From Paraspadella gotoi (lineage: Eukaryota; Animalia; Chaetognatha), in contig CM119267.1 in NCBI GenBank assembly GCA_051294375.1, positions 7,668,683 to 7,732,682 on the forward strand: DNA of 64,000 bases. Direction: 5' to 3'. A program made the position numbers and the translations under genes. The notes beneath the pieces were generated by a model. That model saw only the letters and a program-made list of their open reading frames with translations. It was not told where the DNA came from and searched no databases. Shown piece after piece: positions 1 to 39,231 of the stretch; the stretch's first letter is position 1, and each line of letters begins with the position of its first letter.

Positions 1-167
1 TCGGAGAAGGGGACAAGGGAAATCAATTGTTCTTTTTCCCGGTTGACGTGGCCTCTGCCGCGACACGTGGGGCAGTCGACGTAGACCGTTTCTTCGTTTT
101 CCTCGGGATACCGATCGAACTCGTGGTAGCTCCCGAGGCCCTCTAACTGATAGAGGCTGCTCCCCAT
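1..167 (-). CDS. TMEM106B: TMEM106 family lysosomal type II membrane protein, 5' part only (continues beyond the window edge)
   Basis: Manual translation from ATG 167 gives MGSSLYQLEGLGSYHEFDRYPEENEETVYVDCPTCRGRGHVNREKEQLISLVPFS. This carries the TMEM106 signature CPTCxGxGxI/V...QLxxLxPxS. Not in the ORF track. A pyrimidine tract plus AG (TTTTCGAAG) directly precedes the ATG. Confidence 0.85.
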   Translation of the reverse strand, partial: MGSSLYQLEGLGSYHEFDRYPEENEETVYVDCPTCRGRGHVNREKEQLISLVPFS

Positions 168-550
168 CTTCGAAAACAAGAAATTGAAAAAAGATAAAAT
201 TTGCGAGTTATAATATAGAATTTTTTTATTTTTTTTAACAAAGAATAGAAAAAATATTTCATAAATTGTAAGGGCACTTTTCTAAATAACGTTGAGTAAG
301 GCAATAAGTAAGGCATTGTTCAATAAGGAATGACAATTACTAATGAGTAACGTGAAAAAAAAGTTGAATTGAGTATAGCGTAATAAACAGTTGGGTCAGT
401 GTCGCATTGTCCATCTCCATTTTCATTGCTATGATATGTACATTGTACAATTGGCAAATGTTCTGTAGGTATAACTTATATGTGTAAAGTTCAGTTTATA
501 CAGAAAGCATATTCAAAGTGCTCCGACTCGTTTGCGTTTTTGGCGATATT

Positions 551-2000
551 TCAGTTCTTCTTGTTTCCTTTTTTCAAACTCCTAACCCGAGTCTTGCTAG
601 AAACATCGGAGTCGGAAAAGTCGACGTCCGATTCGCGCGATAGGACGATGATGTCGTCGTCGCTCGAAGCGACCAAGTTGTCGTCGTCTTGGTGTCCATT
701 GATCGGTTTGACATTTCGTTTGCGAAAGGATTTGGACGAGACGCTTTCCTCGTCGACGTTGTAATTTTCGTTGGCGTCGGGAACCAATTCTCCGTCGCTG
801 TCAAGAGAAGCCATCCCGGTCTTCTTTTCTCCATTTTTGATCCGATTTCTCCCCTCCGCCGACGACTTGGACCTTCCAGGCGACTTGGCTCGGGTTCGAC
901 TCGGTTTAGTCTTTTCTCTCTTCTCGCGTGGAGGGTGAGGGACGAGGAATTCTCCCTCGGGCAGAGGGGAAGATCTAGGCACGGATCTTGCGGCCACCGA
1001 CTTGGGAAGCGTCTCCCCGGCCGAATCAATTTCTGCTGCGGCGCGATTCTTAGTCGATCCTCTCTCGCCTCGGTCGAGCTCGTCCTCCGACTCCCACAGC
1101 CGACGTTTCCCGTCCGTCCGCGGGACGGAACTCTTCTCTGGTCTTGAGTCGACGCTGGCCGAGCGATGAGAGGTCGGGCTGTCGTCGTTCCGCCCTCGAG
1201 AAAGCTGGAACCCGCCGTCGCCTCGGAGTCTTTCGTCGCCGGCCGAGTCAAGTCGCTCGTTTTCGCCGAAAGCGTTCACGGCGGGCGGCGGGGATTCAAT
1301 TGCGGCAGTGGCGGACTGACGTAAATGATCGAACATTGCTGGCCCCTTGAGAGCGGCGACGAAGGCCAGGGATGTAATGTAAGTTAGGGTCTGAGCACCG
1401 AGTGATAGGACGAATTTGTAGCCCTGAAAATAATTGGGAATAGTAGTTTGCGTTTTTATTACCGAATGAATTTATATCAGGTTTAAATTGTAATTTAGAA
1501 TGTATTTTTTTCCGATATTATGAATTCGAGATTTTACCAGAAAATTTATAAATGTACTTATGTAGCCAATGCTGATCGCTTAATATAAGTACCTGTTGCT
1601 TAGCTTTTGAAATAATGTCATCTATTTCGTTTTCTTTCTCCGTCAGCATCGGATGAACGAATCGGCGATACAAAATTGACGAGCCTTTTTGACATGATTT
1701 AATTACATAAATGCCAAGCATACACAGTCCAAGTTACAGATGAAACTTACCCTTCGTGTATGGCGACAACAGCCAGATGAGAAAGATGATCTTGACTTCG
1801 TGATAAAAAGGCATCCACCAAGAGACGAGGATATCGGCAAAAGTCTCGGCGAAAAGAAAGAGCGCGAACACGATCCAGTACATCATCCATTTCACGTAGT
1901 CCTTGACGCTCTTTGTCTTGACAGCTTTGTAGCTTTGGTAGGCGGGAAAAAGCGTCCCGAAAAAAAGGATCACGAGGCGGGAGATCAATGAGGAGATCAT
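551..2000 (-). CDS. REEP1-4 subfamily ER-shaping protein (TB2/DP1/HVA22 domain), about 404 aa, 3 exons: 2000-1751, 1684-1593, 1423-551
   Basis: [28 protein letters not shown]...[12 protein letters not shown]...WLLSPYTKG|[11 protein letters not shown]...[12 protein letters not shown]|GYKF matches REEP1-4. Introns are GT-AG and phase-consistent. Exon 3 runs in frame into the low-complexity 551..1336 ORF, which forms a long C-terminal tail. Confidence 0.88.
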
Positions 2001-2603
2001 AATGTGAGTGAGAGGGACGGAAGTCACAGTTTTAAATGTATTTTTTTGAAACTTAATGGAGCTCTAACATATTCTGAAAATATAAACAAAGTCTTGGCAA
2101 TGATGTAAAACATCATTAGTAAAAATAATGCCACCAGAAATAACAAGTAAGAATAGGGAAGGCGAAATATTGAGCAAAATATATTAGTAGTAATAGTAGA
2201 CTCCGTGATTAAAAAAAAAAAAACCATAAAAAATACTGTGTAAATTGATTAAAAAATTACAGAAAAATAAAACATGAAATACATAACAATTAAAATATTT
2301 AACATTTACGTACATACCAACGAAGTACACAAGATCACAACTTTTTCACGTCAAATAACTAAATAGCGGGAAACGTTTCCAAAAAAGCTTAAAAGCATGA
2401 GGATCGTCGCAATAGTATAAAAAAAAACTGAACCCATAACAAACTCAAAAAATCAAATTTAATACAGGAAAACAACATAATCATAACAAACTAGGCTTAA
2501 TATATAAAAAAATAGCTTAGAAGTATAAAAACAAAAGGAATAATATTCAATGGACAAACAGATACAAAAAATTCAAGATATAGAGTCATAAAAAAACTAA
2601 GGA

Positions 2604-5104
2604 TCAGCTGATAAAACGCAGCTCTTCTTCCATAAAACTGGTCATTTTGAATTTTTGCACTTTGCCTGTGACTGTCATTGGAAATTCTTCCACCATTTTG
2701 ATATATTTGGGGATTTTGAAATGCGAAATTTTTCCTCGAGAAAACGAAACGACTTCTTCCGATGTCAAATCGGCGCCTGGCGCGAGCCGGATCCAGGCGC
2801 ACACCTGCTCTCCGAGGCGAGGATCAGAAAATCCGAAGACGCAGACATCGGCGATCGCAGGATGCGTGTGGAGGAATTGCTCAATTTCCGCTGAAAAAAA
2901 AAATCATATTGTATGCAAAAAATACAACTTTAGCATGATTATTGGTTGATAATAAATCAAGTTAATCATCAGATAACACTTTCCTATGCCACAAGAAAAA
3001 AACCAGGAAAAAATTAGTCCACAAGTAAATGCTAAACCTGGATAAATATTTTCGCCGCCCCTGATGATTATATCTGAGGATCTCCCGACGACACTGCAGA
3101 ATCCTTCTTCATCCATGACGCCGACATCGCCAGTTTTGTACCACTTGTCGGCGCTCAAAACATCGCGCGTCTTGATTTCTTCGCCCCAGTATCCGAGCAT
3201 GGTGTTGTAACCTCTAAAAAAGAAAATATTAAATACCTCATAATAAACGTGACGTTTGCATCCAATAACTAGAGCAACAAAAACCCACCTCACGCAAATT
3301 TCTCCCTCTTGACCAATAGGAAGGATCCGGCCTGACTCGTCGGCGATTTTTATCTCTACGTGAGGCATGGCGGATCCGACCGTAGCCACTCGAATGGCCA
3401 ACGAATCTGTTGTACGATGGGACGTCGCCAGCGGACTCAACTCGGTAGCGCTAAAAGATGATTGTTTGGCTTGTGATGTAACAGGAACTTCGACCGATTA
3501 ATTCAATTGAAAAACAGAATGACCCAGAGATCGAAGTAGTTTTAATACTGACCCATAGCCAATAATAACTTCCGACATATTAAGTTCCGTCACGATTCGC
3601 TTCATCAATTCCATCGGACACGGGGAGCCAGCCATGATTCCAGTTCTCATGGTGCTCACGTCTACTTCCTTCAGCCGAGGATGATTCAAAATGTCTACGA
3701 ACATAGTAGGAGTCCCATAGAGAGCGGTGCATCTGGAAAGAAGCGATAGAGGATCAACGTTGGTGTAAGAACTACTTTTACTTACTACTCTTACCTTTCT
3801 TTCCCGATGGCGTCCAACACGCTACCGGCGTCAAATGAATACGAGGGAAAGACGCAGGTCGATCCATGTCCCAGAGTCATTAGACTAGCAAGCACCATGC
3901 CGAAGCAATGATAAAGCGGGACCGGGACGCAAAGGACGCCGCGCTGCTGATCAAATCCCAGTCGTTCCGACGTTGAAAGAGCGCAGTTGAGGATGTTGAA
4001 GTGAGACAGCGTTGCGCCCTTGGGCGAGCCAGTCGTGCCGGAAGTAAACTGAATGTTAATGGGTTCGTCGGGCGCCACGAGTTTCGTCTTTGCTTCCATG
4101 TCAGAAAAGGATTCCGACGAGGAGGCGTCGAAAACATCTTGGAGAGATAAGGCACCGGGAAAAACGGTTCCACTTCCTTCCGGATCGGTGAAGATGACGT
4201 GAGATAAAAGTGGAAGTTCTTGGGAGGTCGTCACCCCCGCGGGAGACGAAGGTAAACTGGGCAATATCTCGCATAGAATCGCATAGTAGTTCTGTTACAT
4301 GGAAAATAAATGCTGATAAACGCTCAAGGTTGGAAAGTAAAACAATTCTTACCCACCTGTGTTTTGAATGTAGGCGTGGCCAAAATTCCCTTGCATCCAA
4401 CTTTTTTAAGGGCAAACTTTAATTCGCCCGTTTGATACGCGGGATTAATATTGACTTGAATAATGCCGACCTTGGCAGTGGCGAACTGAGCTAAGATCCA
4501 AGCTTCGCAATTCGGTGCCCAAACTCCTAATCGATCGCCGGGTTTAAAACCTGTTATCGAAAACATATATGAAAATTAATTAACTGTAGTATTGACAATC
4601 AGGAATCACTAATTAATAAAATTAACAAACGGTGTATAACAAAAGAAGAAAACAATTTTTGCTGCACAGAGATGGAAAAAAAAAATTACGATTTTTTTTT
4701 CTGATTGAAAATGTTTCAAAATGAAAAACCGGTTTTTTTTTTTCAAATTACATTCTTTAACGATCTTGAACTTGACAATGATATTTCTCGTTAGCAAAAC
4801 CTCTCCTTCACCTTTTTCAAAACTCACCCAAAGCGATTAGACCCGAAGCGAGTCGCTCGGCTTTCTGTTTGAGATCGGCGAAGTTAAGCCGAATCCCCTG
4901 ATGAGGGAAGACGTGAGACTCTCGATCCGGAAATCTTTCGGCCAAACGATCGAGACGCTGGCCAATGGTCTCCGCAGTGAGCGGAACCGTCGAAGTCCCG
5001 TGGGTGTATGACTGAGTGTAGCGCCATCTTCTAGGAACTGTCGACGTTGCGACACGTCTCGGAACGGTTTGAAATTTGAAAGGCAGGCCACGGATAAAAA
5101 ACAT
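2604..5104 (-). CDS. ACSF2: Medium-chain acyl-CoA synthetase family member 2, mitochondrial, about 590 aa, 7 exons: 5104-4828, 4550-4357, 4291-3795, 3732-3553, 3450-3289, 3213-3038, 2890-2604
   Basis: AMP-binding motif INIQFTSGTTGSPKGATLSH, plus PVPLYHCFG, YGATELSP, WYKTGD, IIRGGENIYPAEIE and PMTVTGKVQKF. The N-terminus is Arg-rich and lacks acidic residues, like a transit peptide. All six GT-AG junctions are phase-consistent. Confidence 0.9.
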
Positions 5105-5406
5105 ATCAATTTTTTTCCTGGGGTTTTTTTTTCCCCGTTTTTTTTTCAGCGTTTAAGTAAGATATGCAGTGTAGAGAGCTGGCGGTGGAGAAACGATGTT
5201 TGCCGCATACGGGCAATCATCGCATCACCATCTTGTCTGCAATTAAAATTTTGAATCACAAGAGGGCAATAGCTTATTAAATAAACATGATTATTCACCG
5301 AACGACGAAACAAGCGCAACAATAAATTGATACTAATTAATTTTGAATTCAAAAGCAATTTGAATAATTCAAAAATTTCAAGTAATAACGATTGGTAACT
5401 TTCTTA

Positions 5407-6048
5407 TCAATAAGCGCTTTTCGCCTCCAGCGCATCCATCTGCTGCAGCAAAGACGCCGCTGCGAACCTCAACTGCTGAAACTGCTCCTGTCCGACTCCG
5501 AAGTGTTTCGTCTCTCCATCATTGAGCGTCGCTTCGAATTGGACCCTAGGTTCCAAGACGCGAGAAACGGAAGAATCTGAGATAGTGACATCGAGACGCC
5601 AACTCAAGTCAGTCAACGTTGGGTAACCCGCGCGAAGACCCATTGTAGGGGTCCCTTCTAACCGCCCGGCGCCGAAAGCGGCTGCGCGAAGGTCCTCGAT
5701 TTTATCGGCTTCCACGTTTAACTCTGCGAGATCCTCCTTGAAAGTTTCGGCTTTCAGTTTACTCTGACGCCTCGCCGTTCTCAAAAGGACATCCAAACCG
5801 GCGAATACGACGATCACATCGTTCAGAGGTGTGTGATCGTTGGTCAAGTCGTACAGGGATTCGGGACCGACAAGGTCCAATCCTTCCAGTTGGTCGACAA
5901 CAACTTCAAGAATTCTCCGGAATACGTCTTTTTCCATTGAAGGTAACACTTTTAAAAGCTCCTTCACTTCGAGCGGAATTTTAGGACCGAGAAAAAGCGG
6001 CCTTTCGACTTTAGCCGAAGGTAAAGAAACTCCGGTAAATGTCGACAT
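5407..6048 (-). CDS. COMMD5: COMM domain-containing protein 5, 213 aa, single exon
   Basis: C-terminal COMM domain LSWRLDVTISDSSVSRVLEP...FQQLRFAAASLLQQMDALE. The N-terminal FLGPKIPLEVKELLKVL...FRRIL resembles COMMD5. Confidence 0.85.
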   Translation of the reverse strand: MSTFTGVSLPSAKVERPLFLGPKIPLEVKELLKVLPSMEKDVFRRILEVVVDQLEGLDLVGPESLYDLTNDHTPLNDVIVVFAGLDVLLRTARRQSKLKAETFKEDLAELNVEADKIEDLRAAAFGAGRLEGTPTMGLRAGYPTLTDLSWRLDVTISDSSVSRVLEPRVQFEATLNDGETKHFGVGQEQFQQLRFAAASLLQQMDALEAKSAY

Positions 6049-6319
6049 TTTTTTGGGGGGTCATACGTTGAGTAATATATTTCCTTTTTGTTTCCTGACG
6101 AAAATAATGTTAAATTTAATAAATATTATGACTGTTCATTGAAATAATATTATGACTGTTCAATAAAAACTTAGTGTCTTGGCGTAGACTTAGGACGGTG
6201 CTACGTTTTCTATGGGTACATACTACATACATAGAGAAAAACTAATTATAATTTAATATTAAGTCGGGATTTGAACATGAAACATTTAGAGCAGAAGATA
6301 GAAATTTCACCCTCGCAAT

Positions 6320-8557
6320 TTAGTTTTTCCTGGAGCTCACGGAATCGTCAACTAGCTTCTCGATTATATTCAAAACGTTGATTGCGGCGTCGGGGATTTT
6401 GGTGCCAGGGCCGAATACGGCGCTGCAGCCGTTGGCGTAAAGAAACTCGTAGTCTTGGGGAGGAATCACCCCTCCGGCGACGACAACGATGTCCGGTCGA
6501 CCCATCGCCTTTAACTCTTTCACCAACTCAGGAATGAGAGCCTTGTGGCCGGCGGCGAGAGAGCTCACGCCCACCACGTGAACGTCGGCGTCGACGGCTT
6601 GCTGAGCGGCTTCGCGAGGGGTCGCGAAGAGAGGCCCGATGTCTACGTCGAAACCCATGTCGGCGAATCCCGTGGCGATGACCTTACCGCCGCGATCGTG
6701 ACCGTCCTGACCGACTTTAGCCACCAGAATACGCGGTCGTCGTCCTTCATCCTTCAAGAATCGTTCAGATCTCGCCAGCACAGCCTCGATATCTTTCGTA
6801 TCCCCATAGCTGTTCTTGTAGGCGCCGCTGACGAGTCTGTCGTGCGCCGAGTGGCGTCCCCAAATTTTTTCAAGAGCGTCGGATATTTGACCCACGGTAC
6901 ATCTGTCTCGCGACGCCTGGATGGCTAATTCGAGGAGGTTGCCCTCTCCGGTTTTGGCGCAGGCCGTCAACGCGTCCAACGCGGCGGCCACTTTGGCCGG
7001 ATCCTGCTTGGCCCGAGTGGAGGCGATATGCGCCAGTTGCGACTCGAAAACAGTCTTGTTGTCAATCATCAAAACGTCGACTATCTCTTCCTCGGCCAAT
7101 TTGTACTTGTTGACCCCGACGATGGTTTCAAGGCCGGAATCGATCCTCGCTTGCCGTTTGGCTGCGCATTCCTCGATCTTCATCTTCGGCCAGCCGGTAG
7201 CGACGGCGGCCGCCATCCCGCCCATTTTCTCCGTTTCGTCGATGACCTCCATCGCCGCTTTGTAGACGTCGTTAGTCAGAGATTCCATCATAAATGACCC
7301 GGCCCAAGGGTCGGCCACGTGAACAATGCCGGATTCCTCTTGGAGAATAATCTGAGTGTTTCTGGCGATTCGTGCGCTTTTGGGCGTCGGCAATCCCAAG
7401 GCTTCGTCAAACGAGTTAGTGTGGAGAGATTGGGTCCCCCCGAATACGGAGGCCATGGCCTCGATGGTGGTGCGAATTATGTTGTTGTAGGGATCCTGTT
7501 CGGTGAGCGACCATCCCGACGTTTGAGAATGGGCTCTCAACATCGTGGATTTCGAATTTTTGGGATTAAAGTTTTTTTTCATCAAATCTGCCCATAGTCG
7601 CCTTCCCGCCCTCATTTTGGCAATCTCCATGTAAAAGTTCATGCCGATGCCCCAGAAAAAGGAGAGACGGGGCGCGAATTTGTCGATGTCAAGGCCAGCC
7701 TTGATTCCCGTTCGACAGTACTCCAAACCGTCGGCCAAAGTAAAGGCCAATTCCAAAATGGCGTCGGCGCCTGCCTCCTGCATGTGGTAACCAGAGATGG
7801 AGATAGAGTTAAACTTGGGCATGTGTTTGGAAGTGTAAGCGAAGATGTCCGCTATTATGCGCATGGAATGTTGGGGCGGATAAATGTATGTGTTCCGCAC
7901 CATGAACTCTTTAAGGATATCATTCTGAATGGTGCCGGCTAGGTCGCCCAGTTTTGCGCCCTGCTCCTCGGCGGCAACGATGTACATGGCCATGACTGGC
8001 AACACGGCGCCGTTCATAGTCATCGATGTGGATATTTTGTCCAGCGGAATCCCATCGAAAAGAATTTTCATGTCTTCCACAGAATCGATGGCGACACCCG
8101 CCATGCCGACGTCGCCCTTGACCCTGGGATTGTCCGAATCGTAGCCCCTGTGGGTGGCAAGGTCGAAGGCCACGCTCAGTCCCTGCTGCCCCGCCTTAAT
8201 GTTGTCTCTATAAAAACGATTGCTCTCTTCGACGGTAGAAAACCCAGCGTATTGTCGAATCGTCCAGGGTCTTTGTGTGTACATCGTCGGGTAGGGGCCT
8301 CTGGTGAAAGGGAACTTGCCAGGCAACTCGTCCTTTTCGATTCCGTCCTTTTTGGTGTAAACCGGTTTGATGTCGATTCCTTCGGGAGTATGCCAGACTA
8401 GCTTCTCGGCGTCCTTCCCTTTCAGCGCTTTGGTCGCCATGGCGCTCCATTCTGCATTTAGAGGAACGGCCGCCTTGAGTCGACTGATCGAAGCGAAATG
8501 TCGAGAAAACGAGCCGCCAATCCCATTTCCTTTGGACAACAAGTTTCGTGTGGCCAT
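6320..8557 (-). CDS. MMUT: Methylmalonyl-CoA mutase, mitochondrial (adenosylcobalamin-dependent), 745 aa, intronless
   Basis: [28 protein letters not shown] and [11 protein letters not shown], plus the B12-binding motifs DGHDRGGK and [10 protein letters not shown]-terminal transit-peptide-like extension; one uninterrupted ORF. Confidence 0.97.
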
Positions 8558-8583
8558 TTTTTATTCGCCCTAAAAATGTAAGA

Positions 8584-8675
8584 AAACCGACGCAAACTTG
8601 GTTAAAAGGCATCCGCAGTAAGACTTTCACAGAGAAATTGCATCGCACTGCTTCATGACAAATTAGGCACGGTTT
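8584..8675 (-). promoter_or_regulatory. Type II SECIS element in the SEPHS2 3' UTR
   Basis: Minus-strand RNA: helix I 5' arm AAACCGUGCCUAAUUUG, then UC-A-UGAA, helix II GCAGUGCGAU, GC-AA, mini-stem UUUC(UCUGU)GAAA, GUCUUACUGC, GGAU, and helix I 3' arm CAAGUUUGCGUCGGUUU. It has the AUGA/GA quartet, a 10-bp helix II with one mismatch and the apical AA, and lies about 280 nt downstream of the stop of a gene with an in-frame TGA. Confidence 0.85.
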
Positions 8676-8957
8676 AAAAAAATAATTTCAAATAATACAA
8701 AAGGGTTTTAATTTTATATACTTTATAAACCGAAAACCGAAAATTAAAAATACTTGATATTCAACAAGTTTCTTGGCCTGGGGTTTTTGTTAATTCCACA
8801 TTTAGCGCGAACATTAAAAAATTACACCGAATACCTCAAGGTATAAAGTAAAGTTCGGAATGTTCATGAAAACAACAATTTTAAATGATACAAATGCAAA
8901 GACCTTTCCCAGCTTTCAGAAAATTCCAAAATGATCAAAGGCAACTTCAAACGTTCC

Positions 8958-11162
8958 TTACCACAACTTCCCCTCAGTGTCTTTCACGGGCACCTCGAAT
9001 ATCTCTGGCGACTCGACGATCACAGCATTTCCATCTCCCGGCTCCACGTGGCCCACGATCCACGCGGGATAGCCTTCCGTTCTTTCTATCTCTTCGCAGA
9101 ACTCCGAAGCAGCTTCCTTCGCAAGGCACATCAAGAGGCCGCCGCTAGTCTCAGCCGAAGTCCCTCGCAAAAGACCGAATCCCACGCCACAGGCTTTGTT
9201 GACGGCAACCATCTTGGCGATGACGGGAAAACTATGGATAACGAACGACACTTGACTTTTTTGAACTTTGGCCATGTTGGAGGCGTGACCGAAAATGCCG
9301 TAGCCGGTCACGTCGGTCGCGCAGTGTGCTCCGTATTTGTGCATTAGAATGGCTCCGGTACGGTTTAATCGAGCCATAGAATCCGTGGCTCTCTTGAAGG
9401 CAAGAACCTGAAAATGAATGAATACAACAAAAAAATTTATACACACTGTAACAAGCCCTGTTTGGTTACTTTTACTTTCGCCGACTGGGGTTAGGGTTAA
9501 AGATAATTTAAGGGTGGTTTAGGGTTAAGGGTGTTTTAGGGTTAGGGGTAGTTAGGGTAATATAGGAGTCTACGTCGTTCTTAGAGATCGAGGAAGACTT
9601 TTTAAATGGAGATTTTCGTTCAAATCTGACTACCAAACAATATAAACGCTCCTGGTAAAAATTCGGGTAAAATATCGATATAAAAACACTTGATTCCGAT
9701 CCTGTTGTATCTGAAGGGCTCGCATTTTTTTCTCTTGTCAAATCATCAAATCTTGATATCAAACAAACCAGAACAAATAGACTGCTTCTGGACGGAAAAA
9801 TTTTCTATCTCTGATTTTATATAGAAATGAAAGGGATTTTTTTCCTTAAAAACGATATAAACGTGACTGAGGTATGTTCCTGTTCAAACAATGACGTCTA
9901 ATTTTGGAATCCTTTAGCAAAGTGTCTGAAGGCTCTCAAAATTTATCTTTACATTTTATTTGGTTATTTTGATATGATACGATCCTGGAAAGTGAATTAG
10001 TCCATTTTGGTGAAATTTTTATTTAAAGTAAAAGTAAAAGAGGAGCTAACGATCGGAATTCTAAGAGTTTTCAACCGGGAGTCAGATTCGGGAAAAATCT
10101 TCTATGGCGAAAATCTTCCAAAGAAGGGGTTGATTTTCCGAAGATTTTGGTTAATATTTTCTATATTTATGGTCGGATTTTTTGGAAACTTAATATTAAC
10201 AATATTGCCATCATTCTACTTGGCCGGTATAAGAATATATTGAAAAAACCTCGGGCTTTTTTCATCAGAGCTTAGTCTACGGTAATATTTAAAAAAAATT
10301 TTTTTAAAAAATAAGTATTTTTAAATGATTTTTAAAAATCGCCATAACCGCGGTCGGCGAAAGTAAAATTTAGCTATATATTTCTTTATCATTCTGCGCG
10401 CTCATGACATAGTTTAAGTTTAAAAATATTTGGTTGTTGGTCCTGACGCACCGTTTCCGCTTCTGAGATGACATCTTTGACCTTAAGCCATCTTTCCTTC
10501 TTCTGATCCATCCACTGATGCACGTTGACGGCGATCTGCGTTCCAATCGGTTTCGTCAAGACCAAAACGTCACCGACGCACGCGCCGTCCGGACGAATAA
10601 ATTCAGAGTCGGCGCAGACGGAGCTGGCGGCGCCACCGATCATTAACCACGGGTTGTTGACGATTTGTCCCCCGCGGACGGAACATTCGGCCAGAGCTGC
10701 GCAAGCGCGAAATCCCGTTAGCATCTGAGAAACAACAACGTCCCTTTCCACTTCAGAGAGTTCAGGTGGAACGCCAGATATAAGAGAGACGTTGTCGCAA
10801 TTGACGACGCCCATAGCGTACAAGTCTGACAAAACGTTGGCACAGGCGATGCGACCCTGCATGTAAGGATCTTCGACTAGAGGATAAAAAAAGTCGGTGG
10901 TTTGCACAAGAGACAGATTTCCGTGACGAAGGGGAGTCACGCAGCAGTCGACTCCGACGCCGACGGTCGGAGGAGCTCGAGGGGCCTCGACGGAGTCGCC
11001 GCTGCCGGAGTCGCTCTTCGAGCTCTGGTTCATTCCCTCCAGGAGCTTGAGTAGAAGCGCCTGGGGGATCTTGCACCCTCATCCTTTCAGCGCGGCTAGT
11101 TTTGTGAGGCGAAAGTCCGGATCAAGCCCGTAGGCGGCAGGTTCAAAGGATGCTCGATCCAT
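8958..11162 (-). CDS. SEPHS2: Selenophosphate synthetase 2, a selenoprotein (Sec at codon 28, TGA 11081-11079), about 386 aa, 2 exons: 11162-10452, 9407-8958
   Basis: Manual translation from ATG 11162 gives [43 protein letters not shown], in frame with [44 protein letters not shown] and ETSGGLL. One phase-0 GT-AG intron. SECIS present downstream. Confidence 0.95.
9470..10368. mobile_element. Non-autonomous element with terminal inverted repeats and degenerate TTAGGG-like repeats, in the SEPHS2 intron
   Basis: TTTTACTTTCGCCGAC (9470-9485) and its exact reverse complement GTCGGCGAAAGTAAAA (10353-10368), extending imperfectly to about 28 bp. Internal blocks recur at about 60540-61000. No credible ORF. 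Confidence 0.75.
11034..11068 (-). promoter_or_regulatory. Candidate Sec redefinition element (SRE) stem-loop within the SEPHS2 CDS
   Basis: UCCC-CCAGG-C-GCUU-(CUACUC)-AAGC-U-CCUGG-A-GGGA forms a hairpin of about 13 bp that begins 10 nt 3' of the Sec UGA. Confidence 0.65.
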
Positions 11163-11575
11163 TTCTATGTCTAGTAGCAGAGAGCTTTGACCTATATAAA
11201 ATTCAAAATATTCCCAAAGATTTAGTTAATACGTCGAAATTAGGGTAAAAAGAGACATTCGCAAGAAAAATCTTTTTTTTTCATATTTAGACATTAGTTT
11301 AGTTTTGGCTTTTTTAATGTCATAGTTGAATTTTTTTAAATCTTTCAGAAGCGTAAAAAGCTACTAACTACTGACTTTTTAAAAATTTTATCACAATCAA
11401 AATACTTTGTAAATACACCGGCACTCATAATATAATCCTATTTAAACAATCATTAACTAGTTGAATTAAAAAATTCATGATTTCTTCAATCAATAAATTG
11501 TCAACAAAAAAATTTCACCAACAAAAATAAAAAAACTTAATGATACGAGTTTTGGTTGGCCCTAAACAAATAAAC

Positions 11576-13920
11576 TTAGTTGACCGAGTCGGAACTGCAA
11601 TCGATCATAACTTTGACGGCGCCACCTTTTCCAGTTCTCGCCGTTTCAAACGCCTGCAACGTCTCTTCAAGAACAAAGCGATGGGTCACCAAAGGCTTTA
11701 CGTTAACTTTCCCTGAAACAAATATTTTTAATTCCTTGTGAAAATTTTAACCTAATCATTCAATAATCAAAAAAATAATAAGTGTGTAGTGGTAGTATTT
11801 CATACCCCACTACTCGTCCGAGAATCAGCAGCACCTATGGCGCCAGAGGTAGCACGAGCTCCTCCCAACCCAAAGGACTCGGGTTCGCGCCCTGCTGATT
11901 CACACAAGTAAAAGCGGGATGGGGCGTCTAACCCACCTGTACCTGTAGTGTCGGACTACAGCCCGATCCAAAGTTTGGGACCTTGTGTGCAACGGACAGT
12001 AAACTGCTCAGTGAGCATCGTGCTCACGGCATCGTCTTCCACATTGGATCACGTCGGGCTTACCAATGTGAAAGACGATGCCGTGAGCAGTTTACCGTCT
12101 GTTGCACACAAGGTCCCGAGCTTTAGATCGGGCTGTAGTCCGACACTACAGGTGGGTTAGACGCCCCGTCCCGGTTTTACTTGTGTGAATCAGCAGGGCG
12201 CGAACCCGAGTCCTTTGGGTTGGGAGGAGCTCATGCTACCTCCGGCGCCATAGGTGCTGCTGATTTTCGGACGAATAGTGGGGTATGAAATACTACCACT
12301 ACAAGTAATTCATAATTCCACATTATCCAATTAATAAGTTCCTTTACCAGATGCAACAAGCTGAAGAGCGTCGCCGTAACAGTTGGCGTATCTGAAAATC
12401 CCCCTGATGTCTACCTCGCGCCATTGAGAATTTAAAACAGGAAATGACATGTTCGGAGACCCCATACCAACCAGCACAACGGTGCCTGCATATTAAAAAA
12501 TTCTTCAGTAAACAAACGGTTAAAAAAATCAGAATCAAACGCCATCAAAGACGTCGCGAATCGAGCAAACCTGCGCTTTGAGTCGCGAAAACGGCTGTTC
12601 GAAGACTAGATTCCACTCCACTACATTCGATGGCTTTGGAAAATTTTGATCCCAGCAATGATTCCGCCTGTTTTTTTAAAAAAGCAGTCGACAAGATTCG
12701 TTTCTGTTTAATACTTAATATGGTTAAAAACCTCTTTCGCTGTTTCCTCCGGAGTTGACGTCACGAGCAAAATCATGTCAGCGCCAAGAGACTTCGCGAA
12801 TTCCAGCCGGGATGCAGATATATCTATGGCAACAAAAAAAATTGATACAGATTAGGTAATTTAGATTTATCCCTTTATTTAATGCAAGTTTAACTATTGA
12901 ACTACTAAATTTTGAAACAGGAAAGATCTACGATAATTGCACCGAAGTTTAATCCTGCAGCCCACACTTATAAAGCAAAGACATACTGCTAAACCACTGA
13001 GAAGAGATAGAGCGAAAAGAAAAGAGGCAAGACGGTAATTAGATACGACTCGTACGTATATACTAATTAAAAAAAAATGCTCATACCGGTAATGCAGACT
13101 TGGACTGCTCCCATCGCCTTTGCCACTAGCATGTTCACTAAGCCTAAACGTTACGTAAAAAAAATTTGTCAACGGATTTTACCTAACAGCTTTGTATTAA
13201 ATTTTAATACCAATCGGTCCCGCGCCACAAATAAAAACTGTATCGCCAACGGTGATGGCAGCGCGCTTGCAAGCGTGAACGGCGACGCTGAGGGGCTCTA
13301 GCAAAGCCCCTTCTTCTAAGGAGACATGGTCAGGCAGTTTAAAGCAGAAGTCGGCGGGGTGGACAAAAAACCGCGCCAAGGTGCCGTGTACAGGAGGCGT
13401 GGCGCAAAATTCGACCTTGGGACAAAGATTGTATCGACCGCGTTTGCACAAGTCGCACAAGCGGCACGGTACACCTGGCTCGATTGCCACACGATCACCT
13501 GCAAGATAAAACATAACTAGTTAAATAGTAAACGTTCATTTGTCAATCGTCAATGATAATTAAAAGTAGTTTAATAATTACCAACTTTCAATTGGTCGAC
13601 CCCTTCTCCAACTTCAGCAACAACGCCTGATGATTCGTGACCCAAAACCATTGGCTCTTTAACAACATAATCACCAATGCAGCCAGCAACCAGGAAATGA
13701 ACATCAGAGCCGCAGATGCCCACCTTTTAGGAATGAAAATTATTTTGAAAAAAAAAAATTTGTAAGCTTCGAATCTCCTAACTTCAATTCAAAAGTTTTC
13801 ACCAGTTTTTACCTTTTGCATTGCCAAAAGAACTTCATTTTTTCCAGGTTTTGGTTTCGGTCTTTGGAGCAGTTGCAGGTCGTTCTTTGCCAAAAGTACT
13901 GCAGATAAATTGTCATCCAT
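11576..13920 (-). CDS. SORD: Sorbitol dehydrogenase (zinc-dependent MDR family), about 352 aa, 8 exons: 13920-13813, 13723-13582, 13498-13211, 13143-13087, 12823-12732, 12667-12571, 12485-12348, 11712-11576
   Basis: [82 protein letters not shown] and KPLVTHRF. All junctions are phase-consistent GT-AG. Confidence 0.95.
11785..12303. mobile_element. Near-perfect palindromic (foldback/MITE-like) element of about 520 bp; each arm carries a tRNA-like Pol III promoter; in the last SORD intron
   Basis: Starts TGTAGTGGTAGTATTTCATACCCC and ends GGGGTATGAAATACTACCACTACA. Arms are complementary up to a loop of about 15 nt near 12048-12062. A-box-like TGGCGCCAGAGG (11838-11849) and B-box-like GGTTCGCGCCC (11882-11892) are mirrored in the right arm. 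Confidence 0.85.
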
Positions 13921-14288
13921 TTTTTTACAAAGTGAACTACAGACTAGTGACTACTGCTGAAAAAATAAAAATGTAACAAAGATAAGTACGTATCGAGTAA
14001 TGAAGCCGACACAAAACCTCTTCCAAGAAGTTTTTTTCGCGGCAAACAAGTGTAGAACTAGTTATCGTACTATAGCACAGAAAACCGTTAACAATATAAT
14101 TTCGAATCTAAAAGAAGTATAGTAAATAATTAGAAATTTAATGTCACACCTTGATTAAAAAATAAATTTAACAACCAACAATGCTTCCAATGAAATTTTC
14201 ATAATTACGTAGGTCCTTTGGTTTTTTTCACCCACCCAGTTTCCACCATCCATGAATGACAATTCTATATCTCACATTCTGATTAAAG

Positions 14289-15293
14289 TCAGAGGCCTTT
14301 GTTGAAAACAACAACGTCGTCGTCTGGTCGAAGTCGTTTTAGATCAGCCTTTAAATCATGCTCCAGCCTTTCCTTGTCCAACTCGGCGAACTGAGGGAAA
14401 ATCGCGATGGCCGTCGGAAGTCCCAATCCGAAAGCGAGGATCGTCACCACACCAAGCGCAGGCAAATGGAGTCGGGGCCGCCGGGCAAAGGCGGGCACTC
14501 GTTCTAGCCCCATCATCACCAACGGTGGCAAGACAAAGCAGGGTACAGGGAGCAGCGCTCGAGAGATAGCCGTCTCTTGCAGGGCTTTTTTGGCCGCCAC
14601 CCGCGATTTTCCCAGGGTCAAACCGTCGCGGGTCCTGACTAGAATACCCTCTTTCAACTCGGAAAAGCGCATCAGAATGCAGTTAGAAACGGAGGCGGCG
14701 GCGACGGCGGGGAAAGGGACGAAACGCTGGACGATAAGACGCGTTGCTGGGGAAAAGGAAGACGACCTTTTTAACAAAACTGACAGGCCGACGGCGATAC
14801 CGCAAGCCGACGATATAGCGCTCGCGTACCCGACAACAAAACGCGAAGTTGGAGTCGGTTGTGACGCGTTACGATTACAATAGTTAACGCAGGCATTGTG
14901 GCTCTGATTTAGCCACTGCCAGAAGACCATACGGGTCAGAGACTGAGTCGGAATGAGCAGTCCGAAGACGATGGGGCTTCCAAATGGGACGAAACCAGAC
15001 ATTCGAAATGGCATAGGGATTTTCTCGCCAGTGTCCGGGTGAATGATCGCTTGTTTGATCTTTTGCGCACTCCATAACTCGTCGTCAGTTACTCCCTCTG
15101 GTTTGGCGCCGTGAAATTGAAACTCGTCCAACAATGCTATAGCCGAGTCAAGATCCTTCCGAGTCGCGAAGAGAGTCCGAGGATCAACAACGTCGAAAAA
15201 GTGAAGAAGGCGTCCGCGAAACGTACTTTGGTCATATTTTGAAGAACCAAGACGAAATGTTGAAGTAGATAATATTGAGGTAGTTCCCGACAT
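14289..15293 (-). CDS. SFXN5: Sideroflexin-5, mitochondrial inner-membrane carrier, 334 aa, intronless CDS
   Basis: YDQSTFRGRLLHFFDVVDPRTLF, LWSAQKIKQAIIHPDTGEKIPMPFRMSGF, FWQWLNQSHNACVNYCNRNA, QRFVPFPAVA and C-terminal FNKGL. These residues are typical of the SFXN5 subfamily. Confidence 0.93.
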   Translation of the reverse strand: MSGTTSILSTSTFRLGSSKYDQSTFRGRLLHFFDVVDPRTLFATRKDLDSAIALLDEFQFHGAKPEGVTDDELWSAQKIKQAIIHPDTGEKIPMPFRMSGFVPFGSPIVFGLLIPTQSLTRMVFWQWLNQSHNACVNYCNRNASQPTPTSRFVVGYASAISSACGIAVGLSVLLKRSSSFSPATRLIVQRFVPFPAVAAASVSNCILMRFSELKEGILVRTRDGLTLGKSRVAAKKALQETAISRALLPVPCFVLPPLVMMGLERVPAFARRPRLHLPALGVVTILAFGLGLPTAIAIFPQFAELDKERLEHDLKADLKRLRPDDDVVVFNKGL

Positions 15294-15692
15294 GGAGACG
15301 ATAGTTGTAAATTGTTGGGGAAATGATTTTTAACACGCTGATATAAAAAAAAAAATTTTTGGAGATCATTGGAAGACTTGGAAGATGATTACCTAGTTGC
15401 ATAGACGAGGCACCGAAAGATGGGTTTGTCAGCTATTGCATTAAACTTGGACCATAGCAAGTTATGGTTAATTACGGATCGCACGTGAATCTCACACTAA
15501 AAGGGTTATCGTCCGTTTCCTGGTCTGTTTAATAAGCACCTTACAATCCTCAAACACTTAGTCATTCAGGCGAGGGAATTATTTATCCACGTCAAGGATA
15601 TAAGGCCTTACGCTGTGGCGATGACAGCCGAGTTAAACAGATATTAATCTTTAAAGCATATAAATTTTTCATAATACAGAACTGTTTAAATG

Positions 15693-16682
15693 TCATAATT
15701 TATCGTTCCTCTGTTTCGAACGAAGCCAAAACCCCAGTGCACATTTCGTGCCACTGCTAACACGTTCCACCTCAATTCCCTCTTTGTCGGGAGCGACGTT
15801 AAGAAAAACTGACGTCGCAATTTCCCTCTTCCTTTGAATCGGCGGCGAATCGGGACTCATTTCTATGATTTCAATTTTTTCGGCCTCACGAGCATCCTCG
15901 AAAAAGTAGGATTTCCCGCGAAATATTTCTACGCCCTCCGAGGTGTCGACGATGGACGCGGCCAGGCGTTGGTCCACCCAAGCGGCGGCGTCTACTTCTT
16001 CTTTGTCCAGTCGCATGGTCGACTCTGCTTCATCAGGCGTCTTATCTAACCGGAGGTGAAGATAAACGACAATGTGGTGGCGACGAGGCTGTCCTCGGCT
16101 CAGCGTGGGCGGGTACGTGCTCTCCCAAAGGCCGAGACAGGAGACAGAAAGTAAAGAAGTCTTCGACAGGGCCAGCCCTGTCTCTTCGTACAGTTCACGC
16201 ATTCCAGCGTCGAGGGCGGACTCCCCCGTTTCCACGTGACCCCCGGGCGGGACCCAAACACTCGGAAAGGTGCGCATATGTTTGGCTCTCCGCGTCAGGA
16301 GTACTTTTCCCGCAGACTCTACTAAGACGGCGACGCCGGGGGCCACTCCTCGTTCGATTACGTCGGCGGGTAAATTCTCTCGCTGTTCTTCGCTCAGGTT
16401 CGTGATTGGGCAAAAGGAAGGCCGGACGAGAAGGCATGGGGCCGAGCCGAAATCATTTCGGTCCAGAGTGGGCGCCGAGAAATCATTTATGTTCGCCGGG
16501 ACGATTATCATCCGTCGACCGGCGAGGCGCCAACGGACCAATGCGGAATTTTTGTCGGAGGCGTCAGCTCCACGGAGGCGATCCACGACGGAACTGTGGA
16601 AAGGCGCTGGGAAATGGCAGGCGTCGTCGTCGGTGTCCGAAAGGTGAACCAAAACACGTTCGTAGTCGTTTTTTTGCGTCAT
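15693..16682 (-). CDS. NUDT17: Nudix hydrolase 17, intronless CDS; start is probably ATG 16682, with an alternative in-frame ATG at 16730
   Basis: Nudix box GGHVETGESALDAGMRELYEETGL, plus NUDT17-type motifs VLLTRRA, WVPPG, LGLWESTYPP, HHIVVYL and ERVSSGTKCAL. An acceptor (TTCGTCAG, G at 16713) lies between the two ATGs. Confidence 0.88.
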   Translation of the reverse strand: MTQKNDYERVLVHLSDTDDDACHFPAPFHSSVVDRLRGADASDKNSALVRWRLAGRRMIIVPANINDFSAPTLDRNDFGSAPCLLVRPSFCPITNLSEEQRENLPADVIERGVAPGVAVLVESAGKVLLTRRAKHMRTFPSVWVPPGGHVETGESALDAGMRELYEETGLALSKTSLLSVSCLGLWESTYPPTLSRGQPRRHHIVVYLHLRLDKTPDEAESTMRLDKEEVDAAAWVDQRLAASIVDTSEGVEIFRGKSYFFEDAREAEKIEIIEMSPDSPPIQRKREIATSVFLNVAPDKEGIEVERVSSGTKCALGFWLRSKQRNDKL

Positions 16683-19569
16683 TCTGTGAATGGAGATCCA
16701 GCGGGTGCAGAACTGACGAAGCACGAGCATTTAAGAATAGTAACGACAAAAATGTAAAAGGTGAAGACTGTCGGATGAACAATTTAGACAATTTCTGCAC
16801 AGAATATTTTTTTTCTGTTTTCAAACGTATATATCTAGTTTATGCAATTGCAAGCAATTACTGCAAAGAATAATATAACCCTTAATAAAAAAACAACAAA
16901 CTCTTAATAAGGCTCTTAGTCTTGAGTGCGACACCTGTTCCTCCATTCGAATGACGATTGTTCTTCCTGTTGTCCTGATGAGGAATCATCAGGGAGAAAA
17001 ATAAAAAAAAGAGAAATTAGGGAAAATCTAAATATTCCAAATCAGTCCGAATTTTAGAGATCTTAACAAATTCGAAGAGCAAAATTAAAATTGGTACATA
17101 ACATAGAATAACTAGACTAATAGACAACGAAAACGACGGAGAAAGTCATAGAAAAACTCAGAAATAAATTCTTCATTCCATTGTTCATTTGTTCATTTTT
17201 AATCCACTGAGTTTTTGTCGGTTTTTTCTTCGTCGGAAGAGTTAATGGATTCCTTTATTTTATAAAATTAGACAAAAGATCTTTATCCGATGAATATTCA
17301 TGGCGTTATTTAGTATAAATTTTAAAACATTTGCTTTATGTAATTTAGTTTCAATATATTTTTTTCATAAATGAACGAGAAAAATTAAAGTTTATTTGTT
17401 GAGTTGATGATACGCCGAGGGTTTTAAAAATAATTCAACAAATTTTGTTATAAAATTTTATTTCGTATTTCGTACTTAATTCTTTAGTATACTAATATCG
17501 CGGCAAAACTCGCTAAAACTTGATAATACTACGTGAAAAAGTATCGTTTTTTATCCTATACAGTATACTTTTGCTTCTCCCTCATTTCTTTCTCTCTCCT
17601 TTTTTTCATGAGTAGAGGCTTTCTTCATGATTTCGTCATGAGTCTCATGATTTCCACGCTTTCCTCCAAGTCGCCTTCCCTTTTCCTTTCTTTAAATCCA
17701 TTTCCTTCTCTTTTTCCTTGGAGCAAAAAGCCTTTTTCTCTACCATCTACCACAGAGGTAACGAATCTTTCATTGACGTCATTTCGTCTATTCCCTCCTG
17801 TACAGTTGTACCCGCTTGTGTTAAGTATATCCAAAGAGAACACACTGATGACGGAATCCACGAATAATCCGAAATTTTTTTTTTTATAATCGCTATAGAT
17901 TTATTCATTATAGTTTAAGTAAAATTCTCAAATGTTGTTAATAGAGGAGCTTCAGTATCTTATAGATAATAACGTAAGAAATTCTGCTGTACATTTAGAA
18001 GATTTATGATGAAAAAAGCGCCGCTTGGGGCAACATAAAAAAAATTCAAGTTAAAAACATAGTCTATTTCATTGCGTCATGATTCGTGTGCTCCACGCAA
18101 AAATTTGTTCCGAAATATTTTTTATTTTCCACTGACATTCCGACTTTTGAAAATTGCAATCTGCCCAAACCCGCTAATGCTTAAAAACGGAAAACAGAAA
18201 TTAAAAAACGGAAAACGTTTCAATGAGATGGAAATTTTTGGCTCTTACATTTTCTTTCCGATTTAAAAATGATAGGTTAATGTATTATAAACTTCAAAAT
18301 TTTTTTAAGATGGAGCTATGGTATGCGTTGTTGCATTAAAACCATTTTTTCGTTAATCTCAAATCTTAAACACAACGAAACGAAAAGATACTATCGAACG
18401 ATGTGGTTTTCAAAAAGAAGAATAAAAAAATATATATTATTAAATATATATTATTATATTATTAAGATCATTTTATTTTTTATTTTTTGATAAATGCGGT
18501 TAACCTATTAAAATCGTTTAAATCGTTCAAATCCGAGAAAGACAAAGCAATTATAATGCAAAGCCAAAGGGAAACAAACATAAATAACGTTGTGTTGGAA
18601 TCGATACAAACTATAATCAATAAACATTATTTCCCACGGCGATATAAATAGCATCATCAACGGTCAACAGTGTTTCCGTTTTGGTTTTTTTCCGTCTTTT
18701 CCTTTTTCTTTTCGCTCCATTCCTCGCTGCCATTTTGTTTTTTCCCCGACTAGCGGTGCTCGTTGCCCCAAGAAGATCGTAAATTACCCGCCAAATTGGT
18801 CTCTCAATTTCAGAGTCAACTTTTAGTTTTACGCGTTGTGTAAAGCTGACAGCTGAAGTAGACAATATATAATTTATATGTACATGTAGCATTTTATCAC
18901 TTAAAGAATAATCAAAGAATTTATGACGTTGACGTAAGTACGCGTCCGAATTTAGTGTGTTGGCTTAGTTTATCTGTAAAGATTTTAAAAAGTTAGAGTA
19001 AAACCTGTAAAAAATTTGGAAAAAACAAATTACTTCAAGATTTTGTCGATGGGTAAAATTATTAACGATAAGTATTACACGATGTGTGTCTGAAGATCAA
19101 TTTGTTTATAATAATGATACTTGAAAGCTACCTCTCGAGGTTGTTTCCTTTGTTTAACTTATACAACAATATGGTAAATATACAGTGTATATTATTATTA
19201 CACTATATTGATTTTAAAAATATGTACAGAGTACGGTCACTCCTTCCCATCCTTCTCATTTCATGAAAGTTGAGTCTGTTCTGTTATGAGCATTCGACTA
19301 ACGAAAAAAAAATTGACATTTTACCTTATTACTTAATATTGTCATTATCTCAAAAATTCAAAGTGTAAACGCTTAACCTTGATTTTTCTCGAGTTATTTT
19401 CTATTTTATGTAGAGACACGTCTCTGGTTTAATCGTTTTCTCAGTCGCTTGAATCGTCGAACGTAAACAAACAAATGATCGGAATCGCTCGTAGTCGTCC
19501 AACTGTTATTAACTTTCATCGCCTACAATGAAGTAAACGCCGATTACCTCCTATTAACTAAAGTTCACA

Positions 19570-22267: not shown

Positions 22268-22363
<96 letters not shown>

Positions 22364-34026: not shown

Positions 34027-34314
34027 TCTCCACGGAGTTTGCAAAAGGCGATTCGACGCTTCGTGCTTACAACAAAGAAAAAGGCGTTTTTTTTTTTTTA
34101 AATTTTAATAGTATTCAAGAAAACCGAGTAAAAATATTCAAAACAGTAATGGTTACGAAGGCTAATTTATCTTCTGGATAACTACGGGGAATGCAAATGC
34201 TTGGCTTTTTTTTTTTCCCGATCACAGATTCTTTAATTCTCATTGAGTGAAAAGGCGGGGGGGGGACTGGGGGGTGGGGGTGATGTCAGGAGGAGGTATC
34301 GATGATCACAATTA

Positions 34315-37068: not shown

Positions 37069-37127
<59 letters not shown>

Positions 37128-39191: not shown

Positions 39192-39231
<40 letters not shown>

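What the first reader, a model, noticed from the sequence alone, without database searches (positions are those of the whole stretch)
1..16730. Nine-gene co-oriented housekeeping cluster with the layout of an SL trans-spliced animal operon
Seen: nine unrelated genes on one strand with spacers of only about 270-600 bp, most near 370-410 bp. Most ATGs follow a T-rich AG acceptor, for example TACATTTTTAG|GGCG before MMUT, TTTTTTCAG before SORD, TTTTATATAG before SEPHS2 and TTTTCGAAG|ATG before TMEM106. The adjacent 47 kb holds only about two long-intron genes. Known: operons resolved by SL trans-splicing occur in nematodes, tunicates, flatworms and chaetognaths, and nematode operons are enriched for mitochondrial and housekeeping genes; MMUT, ACSF2 and SFXN5 here are mitochondrial. 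Inference: this is a long operon, still open at the window edge, and possibly in a lineage where operons have not been described.
Basis: partly seen in the sequence, partly recalled or inferred. Interest (0 to 1): 0.8.

Follow-up and report, generated by a model that had tools for sequence, protein, structure and literature searches.

The report
Nine-gene animal operon, leader unconfirmed
Nine unrelated housekeeping genes of an unidentified invertebrate sit head to tail, and for the lower five its RNA runs up to or into the next gene, so they are likely one operon that is probably cut into single messages by spliced-leader trans-splicing, a known arrangement, with one unusual splice that would strip the selenium-insertion signal from a selenoenzyme message.

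Summary
The cluster is real: nine minus-strand genes with stop-to-start gaps of 271-603 nt. The best splice acceptor of a gap lies within 50 nt of the next ATG in 5 of 8 gaps (1.2 expected, P=0.002). Spliced RNA contigs of the same organism (window 1-10200 only) leave introns empty but fill the gaps. REEP RNA ends on the TMEM106 acceptor. COMMD5 and SEPHS2 RNA reach 15 and 19 nt from the next acceptor. MMUT and COMMD5 lie on one unbroken contig. A GT-AG splice joins the last codon of SEPHS2 to the MMUT acceptor. This supports co-transcription. No spliced leader was seen, and the contigs cannot settle that point. The lineage has no named relative; one MMUT tree puts it among spiralians. A chaetognath is my best guess, and there SL operons are already described. 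Verdict: most likely a new member of a known kind. One addition: the SEPHS2-MMUT splice removes the stop codon and a SECIS-like element from a gene whose UGA carries a readthrough hexamer. That would be the SECIS-less isoform hypothesised for ancestral animal SPS; it is untested.

The parts
15693..16682 (-). NUDT17-like NUDIX hydrolase, single exon; first gene of the run (an in-frame ATG at 16730 is an alternative start)
   Evidence: Pfam PF00293; named NUDT17 hits; start at 16682 fits homologue N-termini; no RNA test
14289..15293 (-). SFXN5, single exon; candidate acceptor AG 15339-15338, 44 nt before the ATG
   Evidence: Pfam PF03820; sideroflexin-5 hits; acceptor best in its gap, score 6.0; no RNA test
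11576..13920 (-). SORD-like dehydrogenase, 8 exons; candidate acceptor AG 13958-13957
   Evidence: 352-aa model with 7 GT-AG introns; Pfam ADH_N; no RNA test
8958..11162 (-). SEPHS2-like selenophosphate synthetase, 2 exons (11162-10452, 9407-8958), in-frame TGA at 11081-11079; candidate acceptor AG 11193-11192
   Evidence: model; Pfam AIRS; exon 2 covered by RNA contig 5
11029..11081 (-). Sec codon followed by the GGG-TGC readthrough hexamer and an SRE-like hairpin
   Evidence: sequence; -20.7 kcal/mol, z -1.9, 8 of 200 shuffles as stable; motif as described in PMC4561486
8612..8656 (-). SECIS-like element in the SEPHS2 3' UTR, about 40 nt above the MMUT acceptor
   Evidence: pattern hit, 8 of 9 helix pairs, 10 of 2000 shuffles; no Rfam SECIS hit; fold energy not unusual
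8570..8961 (-). 392-nt GT-AG intron seen in RNA: donor inside the last codon and stop of SEPHS2, acceptor 12 nt before the MMUT ATG; removes the stop codon and the SECIS-like element
   Evidence: joint in RNA contig 3, 30 letters on the short side; donor score 4.2, within the range of true donors
6320..8557 (-). MMUT, single exon, 745 aa
   Evidence: Pfam; homologues; RNA contig 3
5407..6048 (-). COMMD5-like, single exon; candidate acceptor AG 6096-6095; on the same unbroken RNA contig as MMUT (8568-5254)
   Evidence: Pfam COMM
2604..5104 (-). ACSF2-like acyl-CoA synthetase, 7 exons; candidate acceptor AG 5238-5237 followed by 4 upstream ATGs
   Evidence: all 6 introns seen in RNA; Pfam AMP-binding
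551..2000 (-). REEP-family gene, 3 exons; candidate acceptor AG 2075-2074; RNA contig runs 3' to position 169
   Evidence: both introns seen in RNA; Pfam PF03134
1..167 (-). TMEM106 5' end, ATG directly after AG 169-168; cut by the window edge
   Evidence: Pfam TMEM106_N; sequence

Best explanation
Nine unrelated housekeeping genes lie head to tail on one strand and are likely transcribed as one long RNA from a promoter above NUDT17, which is probably resolved into single mRNAs by adding a spliced leader at the unpaired acceptor in front of each start codon. Shown: gene order and spacing; acceptors placed non-randomly near the start codons; processed RNA filling four of the five tested gaps to within 0-19 nt of the next acceptor or across it; real use of the MMUT acceptor; a splice that needs one RNA molecule to span the SEPHS2-MMUT boundary. 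Inferred: a single upstream promoter (16.8-21.7 kb); 3' ends formed at or just above the next acceptor, as in Ciona and Spadella operons with little or no intercistronic DNA; the leader itself; that the upper four genes behave like the lower five; that the animal is a chaetognath (about 60-65%). The SEPHS2-MMUT cis-splice is most simply a competitor of trans-splicing at the same acceptor.
For: run X1: 8 introns of REEP and ACSF2 are spliced out, and five contigs alone account for the depth in 23 of 28 bins. Introns are therefore empty and the gap coverage is processed RNA, not DNA. Contig 1 ends at 169, the A of the TMEM106 acceptor. Contigs 3 and 4 reach 15 and 19 nt from the next AG, contig 2 reaches 213 nt. 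Contig 3 runs unbroken 8568-5254 over MMUT, the gap and COMMD5. The joint 8961 to 8570 is GT-AG. The SECIS-like element pins the SEPHS2 3' UTR to about 40 nt from the MMUT acceptor. Acceptor placement P=0.002. No gap-wide motif beyond A/T runs. Precedent: 3 nt between poly(A) site and acceptor in a Spadella operon (PMC2481426, passages); poly(A) added at or 2-6 nt above the acceptor AG in Ciona (PMC1488885, section 14); 18% of genes in operons in Paraspadella gotoi (PMC12460157, passages).
Against: No leader sequence was seen. The ACSF2 contig begins at 5204 with no extra letters, and 5205-5253 has no cover. The one junction seen at a gene-start acceptor is cis, not trans. It has 30 letters on its short side, one short of the tool's 31-letter bridging rule, and rests on one run. 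Assembled contigs cannot show RNA ends, and a contig across two genes need not be one transcript. Three chosen acceptors have upstream ATGs, and donor-like GT sites scoring 2.8 or more exist in 6 of 8 gaps, so local cis-splicing is possible. The four upper gene starts are untested. The lineage rests on one quick single-gene tree whose sampling lacks nematodes, flatworms, rotifers and tunicates; the SFXN5 tree does not place the clade with spiralians.
Confidence: 0.68

Rival explanations
1. Compact but independent genes: each has its own promoter inside the 3' UTR or last exon of the gene above, and the acceptors are ordinary 5' UTR intron acceptors joined by cis-splicing. For MMUT the upstream exon would be SEPHS2 exon 2.
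For: The only junction seen at a start acceptor is cis; donor-like sites in most gaps; no leader seen; ACSF2 contig starts without extra letters.
Against: No joint from a local non-coding exon was listed at the COMMD5, ACSF2, REEP or TMEM106 acceptors. SEPHS2 exon 2 as a 5' UTR would put 7 ATGs before MMUT. Eight promoters would have to overlap transcribed 3' UTRs. The REEP-TMEM106 gap has no usable donor (best score -1.5).
Confidence: 0.14
2. Polycistronic transcription without a leader: some mature mRNAs stay di- or tricistronic (SEPHS2-MMUT-COMMD5) and downstream frames are reached by reinitiation or internal entry.
For: Unbroken MMUT-COMMD5 contig and the spliced SEPHS2-MMUT joint at ordinary depth.
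Against: It does not explain why the best acceptor sits just before the ATG in most gaps. Contig breaks lie near the ACSF2 and TMEM106 acceptors. Unnamed relatives' MMUT and SFXN5 lie on contigs of single-gene length (2.4-2.8 kb and 1.1-2.3 kb).
Confidence: 0.1
3. Several shorter operons or a hybrid: the run is broken by internal promoters, most plausibly in the longest gap (ACSF2-REEP) or among the untested upper genes, so 'nine genes, one unit' overstates it.
For: ACSF2 contig stops 213 nt above the REEP acceptor; no contig bridges COMMD5-ACSF2; no RNA data above 10.2 kb.
Against: A poly-A-like stretch was skipped in that gap and the tool drops records, so holes prove nothing; the upper gaps have the same length and acceptor layout as the tested ones.
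Confidence: 0.08

Closest known systems
Chaetognath SL-resolved operons (Spadella cephaloptera RPS14-PCNA, PMC2481426; Paraspadella gotoi, PMC12460157)
   Same: Co-oriented housekeeping genes; 3' end almost touching the next acceptor (3 nt in Spadella); operons called at under 250 bp between gene models; longest reported has nine genes.
   Different: The reported nine-gene operon holds ribosomal-protein, ubiquitin and proteasome genes, not these. Leader and species are not shown here. The paper's gene table (Supplementary Table 1, xlsx) was too large to read and may list this cluster.
Ciona operons without intercistronic DNA (PMC1488885) and SL1-type C. elegans operons (as cited there)
   Same: Upstream 3' end at the acceptor AG, as the REEP contig end at 169 suggests; unresolved dicistronic RNA detectable.
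   Different: Ciona operons are mostly 2 genes in that paper, up to 7 in PMC7986045 (passages). Here other contig ends lie 15-213 nt above the AG. SFXN5 does not group with Ciona savignyi.
SECIS-lacking selenoprotein isoforms: SELENOS/VIMP SECIS removal by splicing, and the hypothesised dual SPS1/SPS2 ancestral gene (PMC4561486)
   Same: A UGA with the GGG-UGY hexamer and a downstream hairpin, and a splice that removes the SECIS.
   Different: Here the alternative acceptor is the start acceptor of the next gene, the splice also removes the stop codon (36 extra residues), and MMUT plus COMMD5 would become the 3' UTR. No readthrough or protein product is shown.
Hydra RFC140-flp and Schistosoma mansoni polycistrons (PMC3273482, PMC5832876)
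   Same: About 400-nt stop-to-start gap with a T-rich acceptor (Hydra); cis- and trans-splicing competing for one acceptor (Schistosoma, at internal introns).
   Different: Those are 2-3 genes and experimentally verified; this is nine or more and unverified.

Membership tests
SL-resolved eukaryotic operon | Closely spaced co-oriented genes | tested here: met
   9 genes, gaps 271-603 nt stop to start; RNA-defined gaps 0, 0, 15, 19 and 213 nt for the five tested
SL-resolved eukaryotic operon | Splice acceptor just upstream of each downstream start codon | tested here: met
   Best AG within 50/75/135 nt in 5/6/7 of 8 gaps, P=0.002/0.001/0.006; MMUT acceptor used in RNA
SL-resolved eukaryotic operon | Transcription across gene boundaries | tested here: met
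   GT-AG splice SEPHS2 to MMUT and unbroken MMUT-COMMD5 contig; one run, contigs only, 2 of 5 tested boundaries bridged
SL-resolved eukaryotic operon | Common non-templated 5' leader on downstream mRNAs | tested here: inconclusive
   None among 11 listed loose ends, 57 not shown; none on the ACSF2 contig start; no raw reads available
SL-resolved eukaryotic operon | Single promoter, none in the gaps | not testable with these tools
   No CAGE, ATAC or ChIP data; no shared non-AT motif in the gaps
SL-resolved eukaryotic operon | SL RNA gene in the genome | not testable with these tools
   No genome held; none in the window by Rfam; two short chaetognath SL motifs do not co-occur in the window
Chaetognatha (lineage assignment) | Proteins group with named chaetognath sequences | tested here: inconclusive
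   No chaetognath-named sequence among any hits. Nearest are unnamed JGI/Logan/ENA proteins at 80-83% (MMUT) and 67-71% (SFXN5); named ones at most 76% and 60%
SPS2-Sec gene | In-frame UGA at the catalytic site plus a 3' UTR SECIS | tested here: inconclusive
   UGA present; SECIS by my own consensus pattern only, not by Rfam
SPS1-type non-Sec readthrough isoform | SECIS-less mRNA translated through UGA | not testable with these tools
   Splice, hexamer and hairpin seen; translation not shown

The most novel reading that the evidence does not exclude
The start acceptor of MMUT does double duty: trans-splicing there frees MMUT mRNA and leaves a SECIS-bearing SEPHS2 message, while cis-splicing to it from the SEPHS2 stop codon makes a SECIS-less message read through its UGA. 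One unduplicated gene would then supply both SPS2 and SPS1 activities, the ancestral dual state hypothesised by Mariotti et al., with operon processing as the switch, inside one of the longest animal operons outside nematodes.
Probability: 0.15. Interest if true: 0.75.

Novelty: new member of a known kind. Interest (0 to 1): 0.45.

Why it matters
As an operon it is a good example, not a new kind: nine or more genes would equal the longest reported for a chaetognath (PMC12460157). If the animal turns out to belong to a phylum without reported trans-splicing (my estimate about 25%), it would add another independent origin of animal operons. The SEPHS2-MMUT splice makes a published speculation testable at a defined junction: that unduplicated animal SPS genes make a SECIS-less, non-selenocysteine isoform.

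Tried and rejected
No genome is held, so no SL RNA search and no genome-wide background. The run search listed no holder on record as RNA; X1 is a guessed RNA run whose spliced introns show it is RNA-derived. X2 and X3 laid 3 and 1 records, uninformative apart from a short REEP match. The metagenome pattern scan gave 3 loci: two bacterial-like and one intron-bearing MMUT at mostly 62-68% identity, so no leader or synteny data. Cluster look-ups named none of the nearest MMUT, SFXN5 or COMMD5 relatives; for NUDT17, 5 of 10 clusters were named (lobster, vertebrates), none close. The COMMD5 search gave 1 unnamed hit. The NUDT17 representative and atlas searches confirmed the family but not the lineage. 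Rfam over the window gave only sub-threshold repeat matches and no SECIS in the SEPHS2 gap. The SECIS-like hairpin is not unusually stable (z +0.55 and -0.40), and my pattern was written after seeing it; at the looser cut-off it also hits the SORD gap. Uncovered stretches 5205-5253 and 8569-8590 are not used as evidence. Depth sums (226 against 116 + 131) suggest the splice may be common but contig depth cannot show it. A genome frameshift in the ACSF2 5' region was considered; RNA shows no indel there. Literature searches found no paper holding all of selenophosphate synthetase, SECIS, operon, trans-splicing or all of SECIS, alternative splicing, SEPHS2, readthrough, invertebrate; the library lacks most subscription papers. 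Listings showed no leader report for gastrotrichs, entoprocts, bryozoans or gnathostomulids; listings only, apart from PMC11660948, whose main text has no 'operon' or 'trans-splic'. Supplement searches found none of these genes (part 1 of 2 of one table read). Three look-ups of earlier scan findings gave nothing relevant.
Full report
Observation. The first 16.7 kb holds nine minus-strand genes. Each has a Pfam family hit (9 of 9), and I built full models with GT-AG introns for the four spliced genes. Stop-to-start gaps are 399, 368, 413, 400, 271, 302, 603 and 383 nt. The region is 61% coding and has none of the long (AG)n repeats, of which the other 47 kb has 22. In that 47 kb I confirmed only a DUF229 gene at about 34.3-42.5 kb. 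A plus-strand gene starting near 22 kb is inferred by eye; 31 of 34 candidate segments, including its pieces, had no Pfam hit at E 0.05, and two of the three hits were weak.

Acceptors. With a matrix trained on the 16 internal introns, the best AG in a gap lies within 50 nt of the next ATG in 5 of 8 gaps (1.24 expected, P=0.002; 0 of 1000 dinucleotide shuffles reached 5), within 75 nt in 6 of 8 and within 135 nt in 7 of 8. Against: the proposed NUDT17 acceptor scores -10.5, the SEPHS2 one is second best, three acceptors have upstream ATGs, and donor-like sites scoring 2.8 or more exist in 6 of 8 gaps.

RNA. One run (X1) holds 74% of sampled words. Its contigs were laid on 1-10200 only, which covers five of the eight gene boundaries. 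Eight introns are spliced out, and five contigs explain the depth in 23 of 28 bins; the misses are repeat-rich bins and bins with unlisted records. So introns are empty and the cover in the gaps is processed RNA. The REEP contig runs through the whole gap to 169, the A of the TMEM106 acceptor. The COMMD5 and SEPHS2 contigs reach 15 and 19 nt from the next AG, the ACSF2 contig 213 nt. MMUT, the 271-nt gap and COMMD5 lie on one unbroken contig (8568-5254). That contig begins with a GT-AG joint from 8961, inside the last codon and stop of SEPHS2, to the MMUT acceptor at 8570. The donor scores 4.2, within the range of true donors. The joint has 30 letters on the short side, one under the tool's bridging rule, and comes from one run. 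No leader was seen among the 11 loose ends listed (57 not shown), and the ACSF2 contig starts at 5204 without extra letters. Assembled contigs drop short branches and cannot show RNA ends, so this is inconclusive rather than negative.

Lineage. MMUT's best hits are four unnamed JGI clusters at 80-83%, then 77% and below; named proteins reach 76%. SFXN5 shows the same step, 67-71% to 60%. None of the near clusters carries a name. In a quick 65-row MMUT tree (64 of the 120 hits) the window and these four form a clade (SH-aLRT 100) among annelids, molluscs and a nemertean. The sampling lacks nematodes, flatworms, rotifers and tunicates. The careful 40-row SFXN5 tree (39 of 120 hits) recovers the clade but leaves it on a long branch, not with spiralians or Ciona. 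A phylum-level lineage without annotated public proteins, common in environmental assemblies, suggests chaetognaths to me (about 60-65%). This is inference, not a test.

Mechanism. Most likely one promoter in 16.8-21.7 kb drives a polycistronic RNA; each unpaired acceptor takes a spliced leader, and upstream 3' ends form at or just above that acceptor. This matches Spadella, where 3 nt separate poly(A) site and acceptor (PMC2481426, passages), and Ciona, where poly(A) is added at the AG or 2-6 nt above it (PMC1488885, passages and section 14). In P. gotoi 18% of genes are in operons and the longest has nine other genes (PMC12460157, passages, outline and section 5); its Supplementary Table 1 could not be read and may bear on novelty. 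Spacing, acceptors and boundary-crossing RNA are shown; promoter, leader and species are inferred. Confidence 0.68. Rivals: independent nested promoters with cis-splicing (0.14), leaderless polycistronic mRNA (0.10), several shorter operons (0.08).

The SEPHS2 splice. SEPHS2 has an in-frame TGA at 11081-11079 followed by GGG-TGC and a hairpin of -20.7 kcal/mol (z -1.9). A SECIS-pattern match lies at 8656-8612 (8 of 9 helix pairs, 10 of 2000 shuffles, the only minus-strand hit at that cut-off in the window). Rfam does not detect it and its fold is unremarkable. The 8961-8570 splice removes this element and the stop codon and adds 36 residues read out of frame from the MMUT start, ending at 8458. 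Mariotti et al. describe this hexamer as readthrough-enhancing and speculate that ancestral animal SPS made a non-Sec isoform through regulated SECIS inclusion (PMC4561486, passages). Two searches found no paper holding all my terms for such a case. The duller reading is that a cryptic donor sometimes beats the leader to the acceptor and the product is degraded; cis/trans competition at one acceptor is reported in Schistosoma (PMC5832876, passages). I give the functional reading 0.15.

Other papers seen: PMC7986045 (passages), PMC3273482 (passages), PMC11660948 (passages).

Verdict. Observation confirmed; operon reading supported, leader unproven; new member of a known kind; interest 0.45.

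Noticed in passing
window 9470-10368: About 900-bp MITE-like element with 27-nt terminal inverted repeats (89% complementary) and TTAGGG-like repeats in the SEPHS2 intron; RNA contig depth in the thousands in the part laid suggests a high-copy family.
   Followed up: partly
window 11785-12303: About 520-bp near-perfect fold-back element (arms of 157, 70 and 27 nt at 93-96%) in the last SORD intron.
   Followed up: partly
window 8591: The SEPHS2 3' UTR contig continues for 183 letters that lie nowhere listed in 1-10200: an allelic insertion, or a splice to a gene beyond the window edge. Unexplained.
   Followed up: no
window 5105-5236: ACSF2 5' region has four upstream ATGs, including a 24-codon ORF that reads like a mitochondrial presequence and stops just before a run of homopolymers; RNA shows no indel or intron there.
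   Followed up: partly
window 34300-42550 (-): Long-intron DUF229 gene; three exons hit PF02995.
   Followed up: partly
window 22000-31700 (+): Probable plus-strand gene diverging from the cluster: GC-rich segment near 22.1-22.26 kb ending at a GTAAG donor, and a PDZ-like segment at 31521-31673 by eye; no Pfam hit.
   Followed up: partly
window 5407-16682: Four of the nine genes (NUDT17, SFXN5, MMUT, COMMD5) are intronless, whereas vertebrate orthologues have many introns (recalled); SORD and ACSF2 keep 7 and 6 short introns.
   Followed up: no
window ~54.7 kb: An assembly gap (N run) shows as X residues in an ORF at 54578-54880.
   Followed up: no
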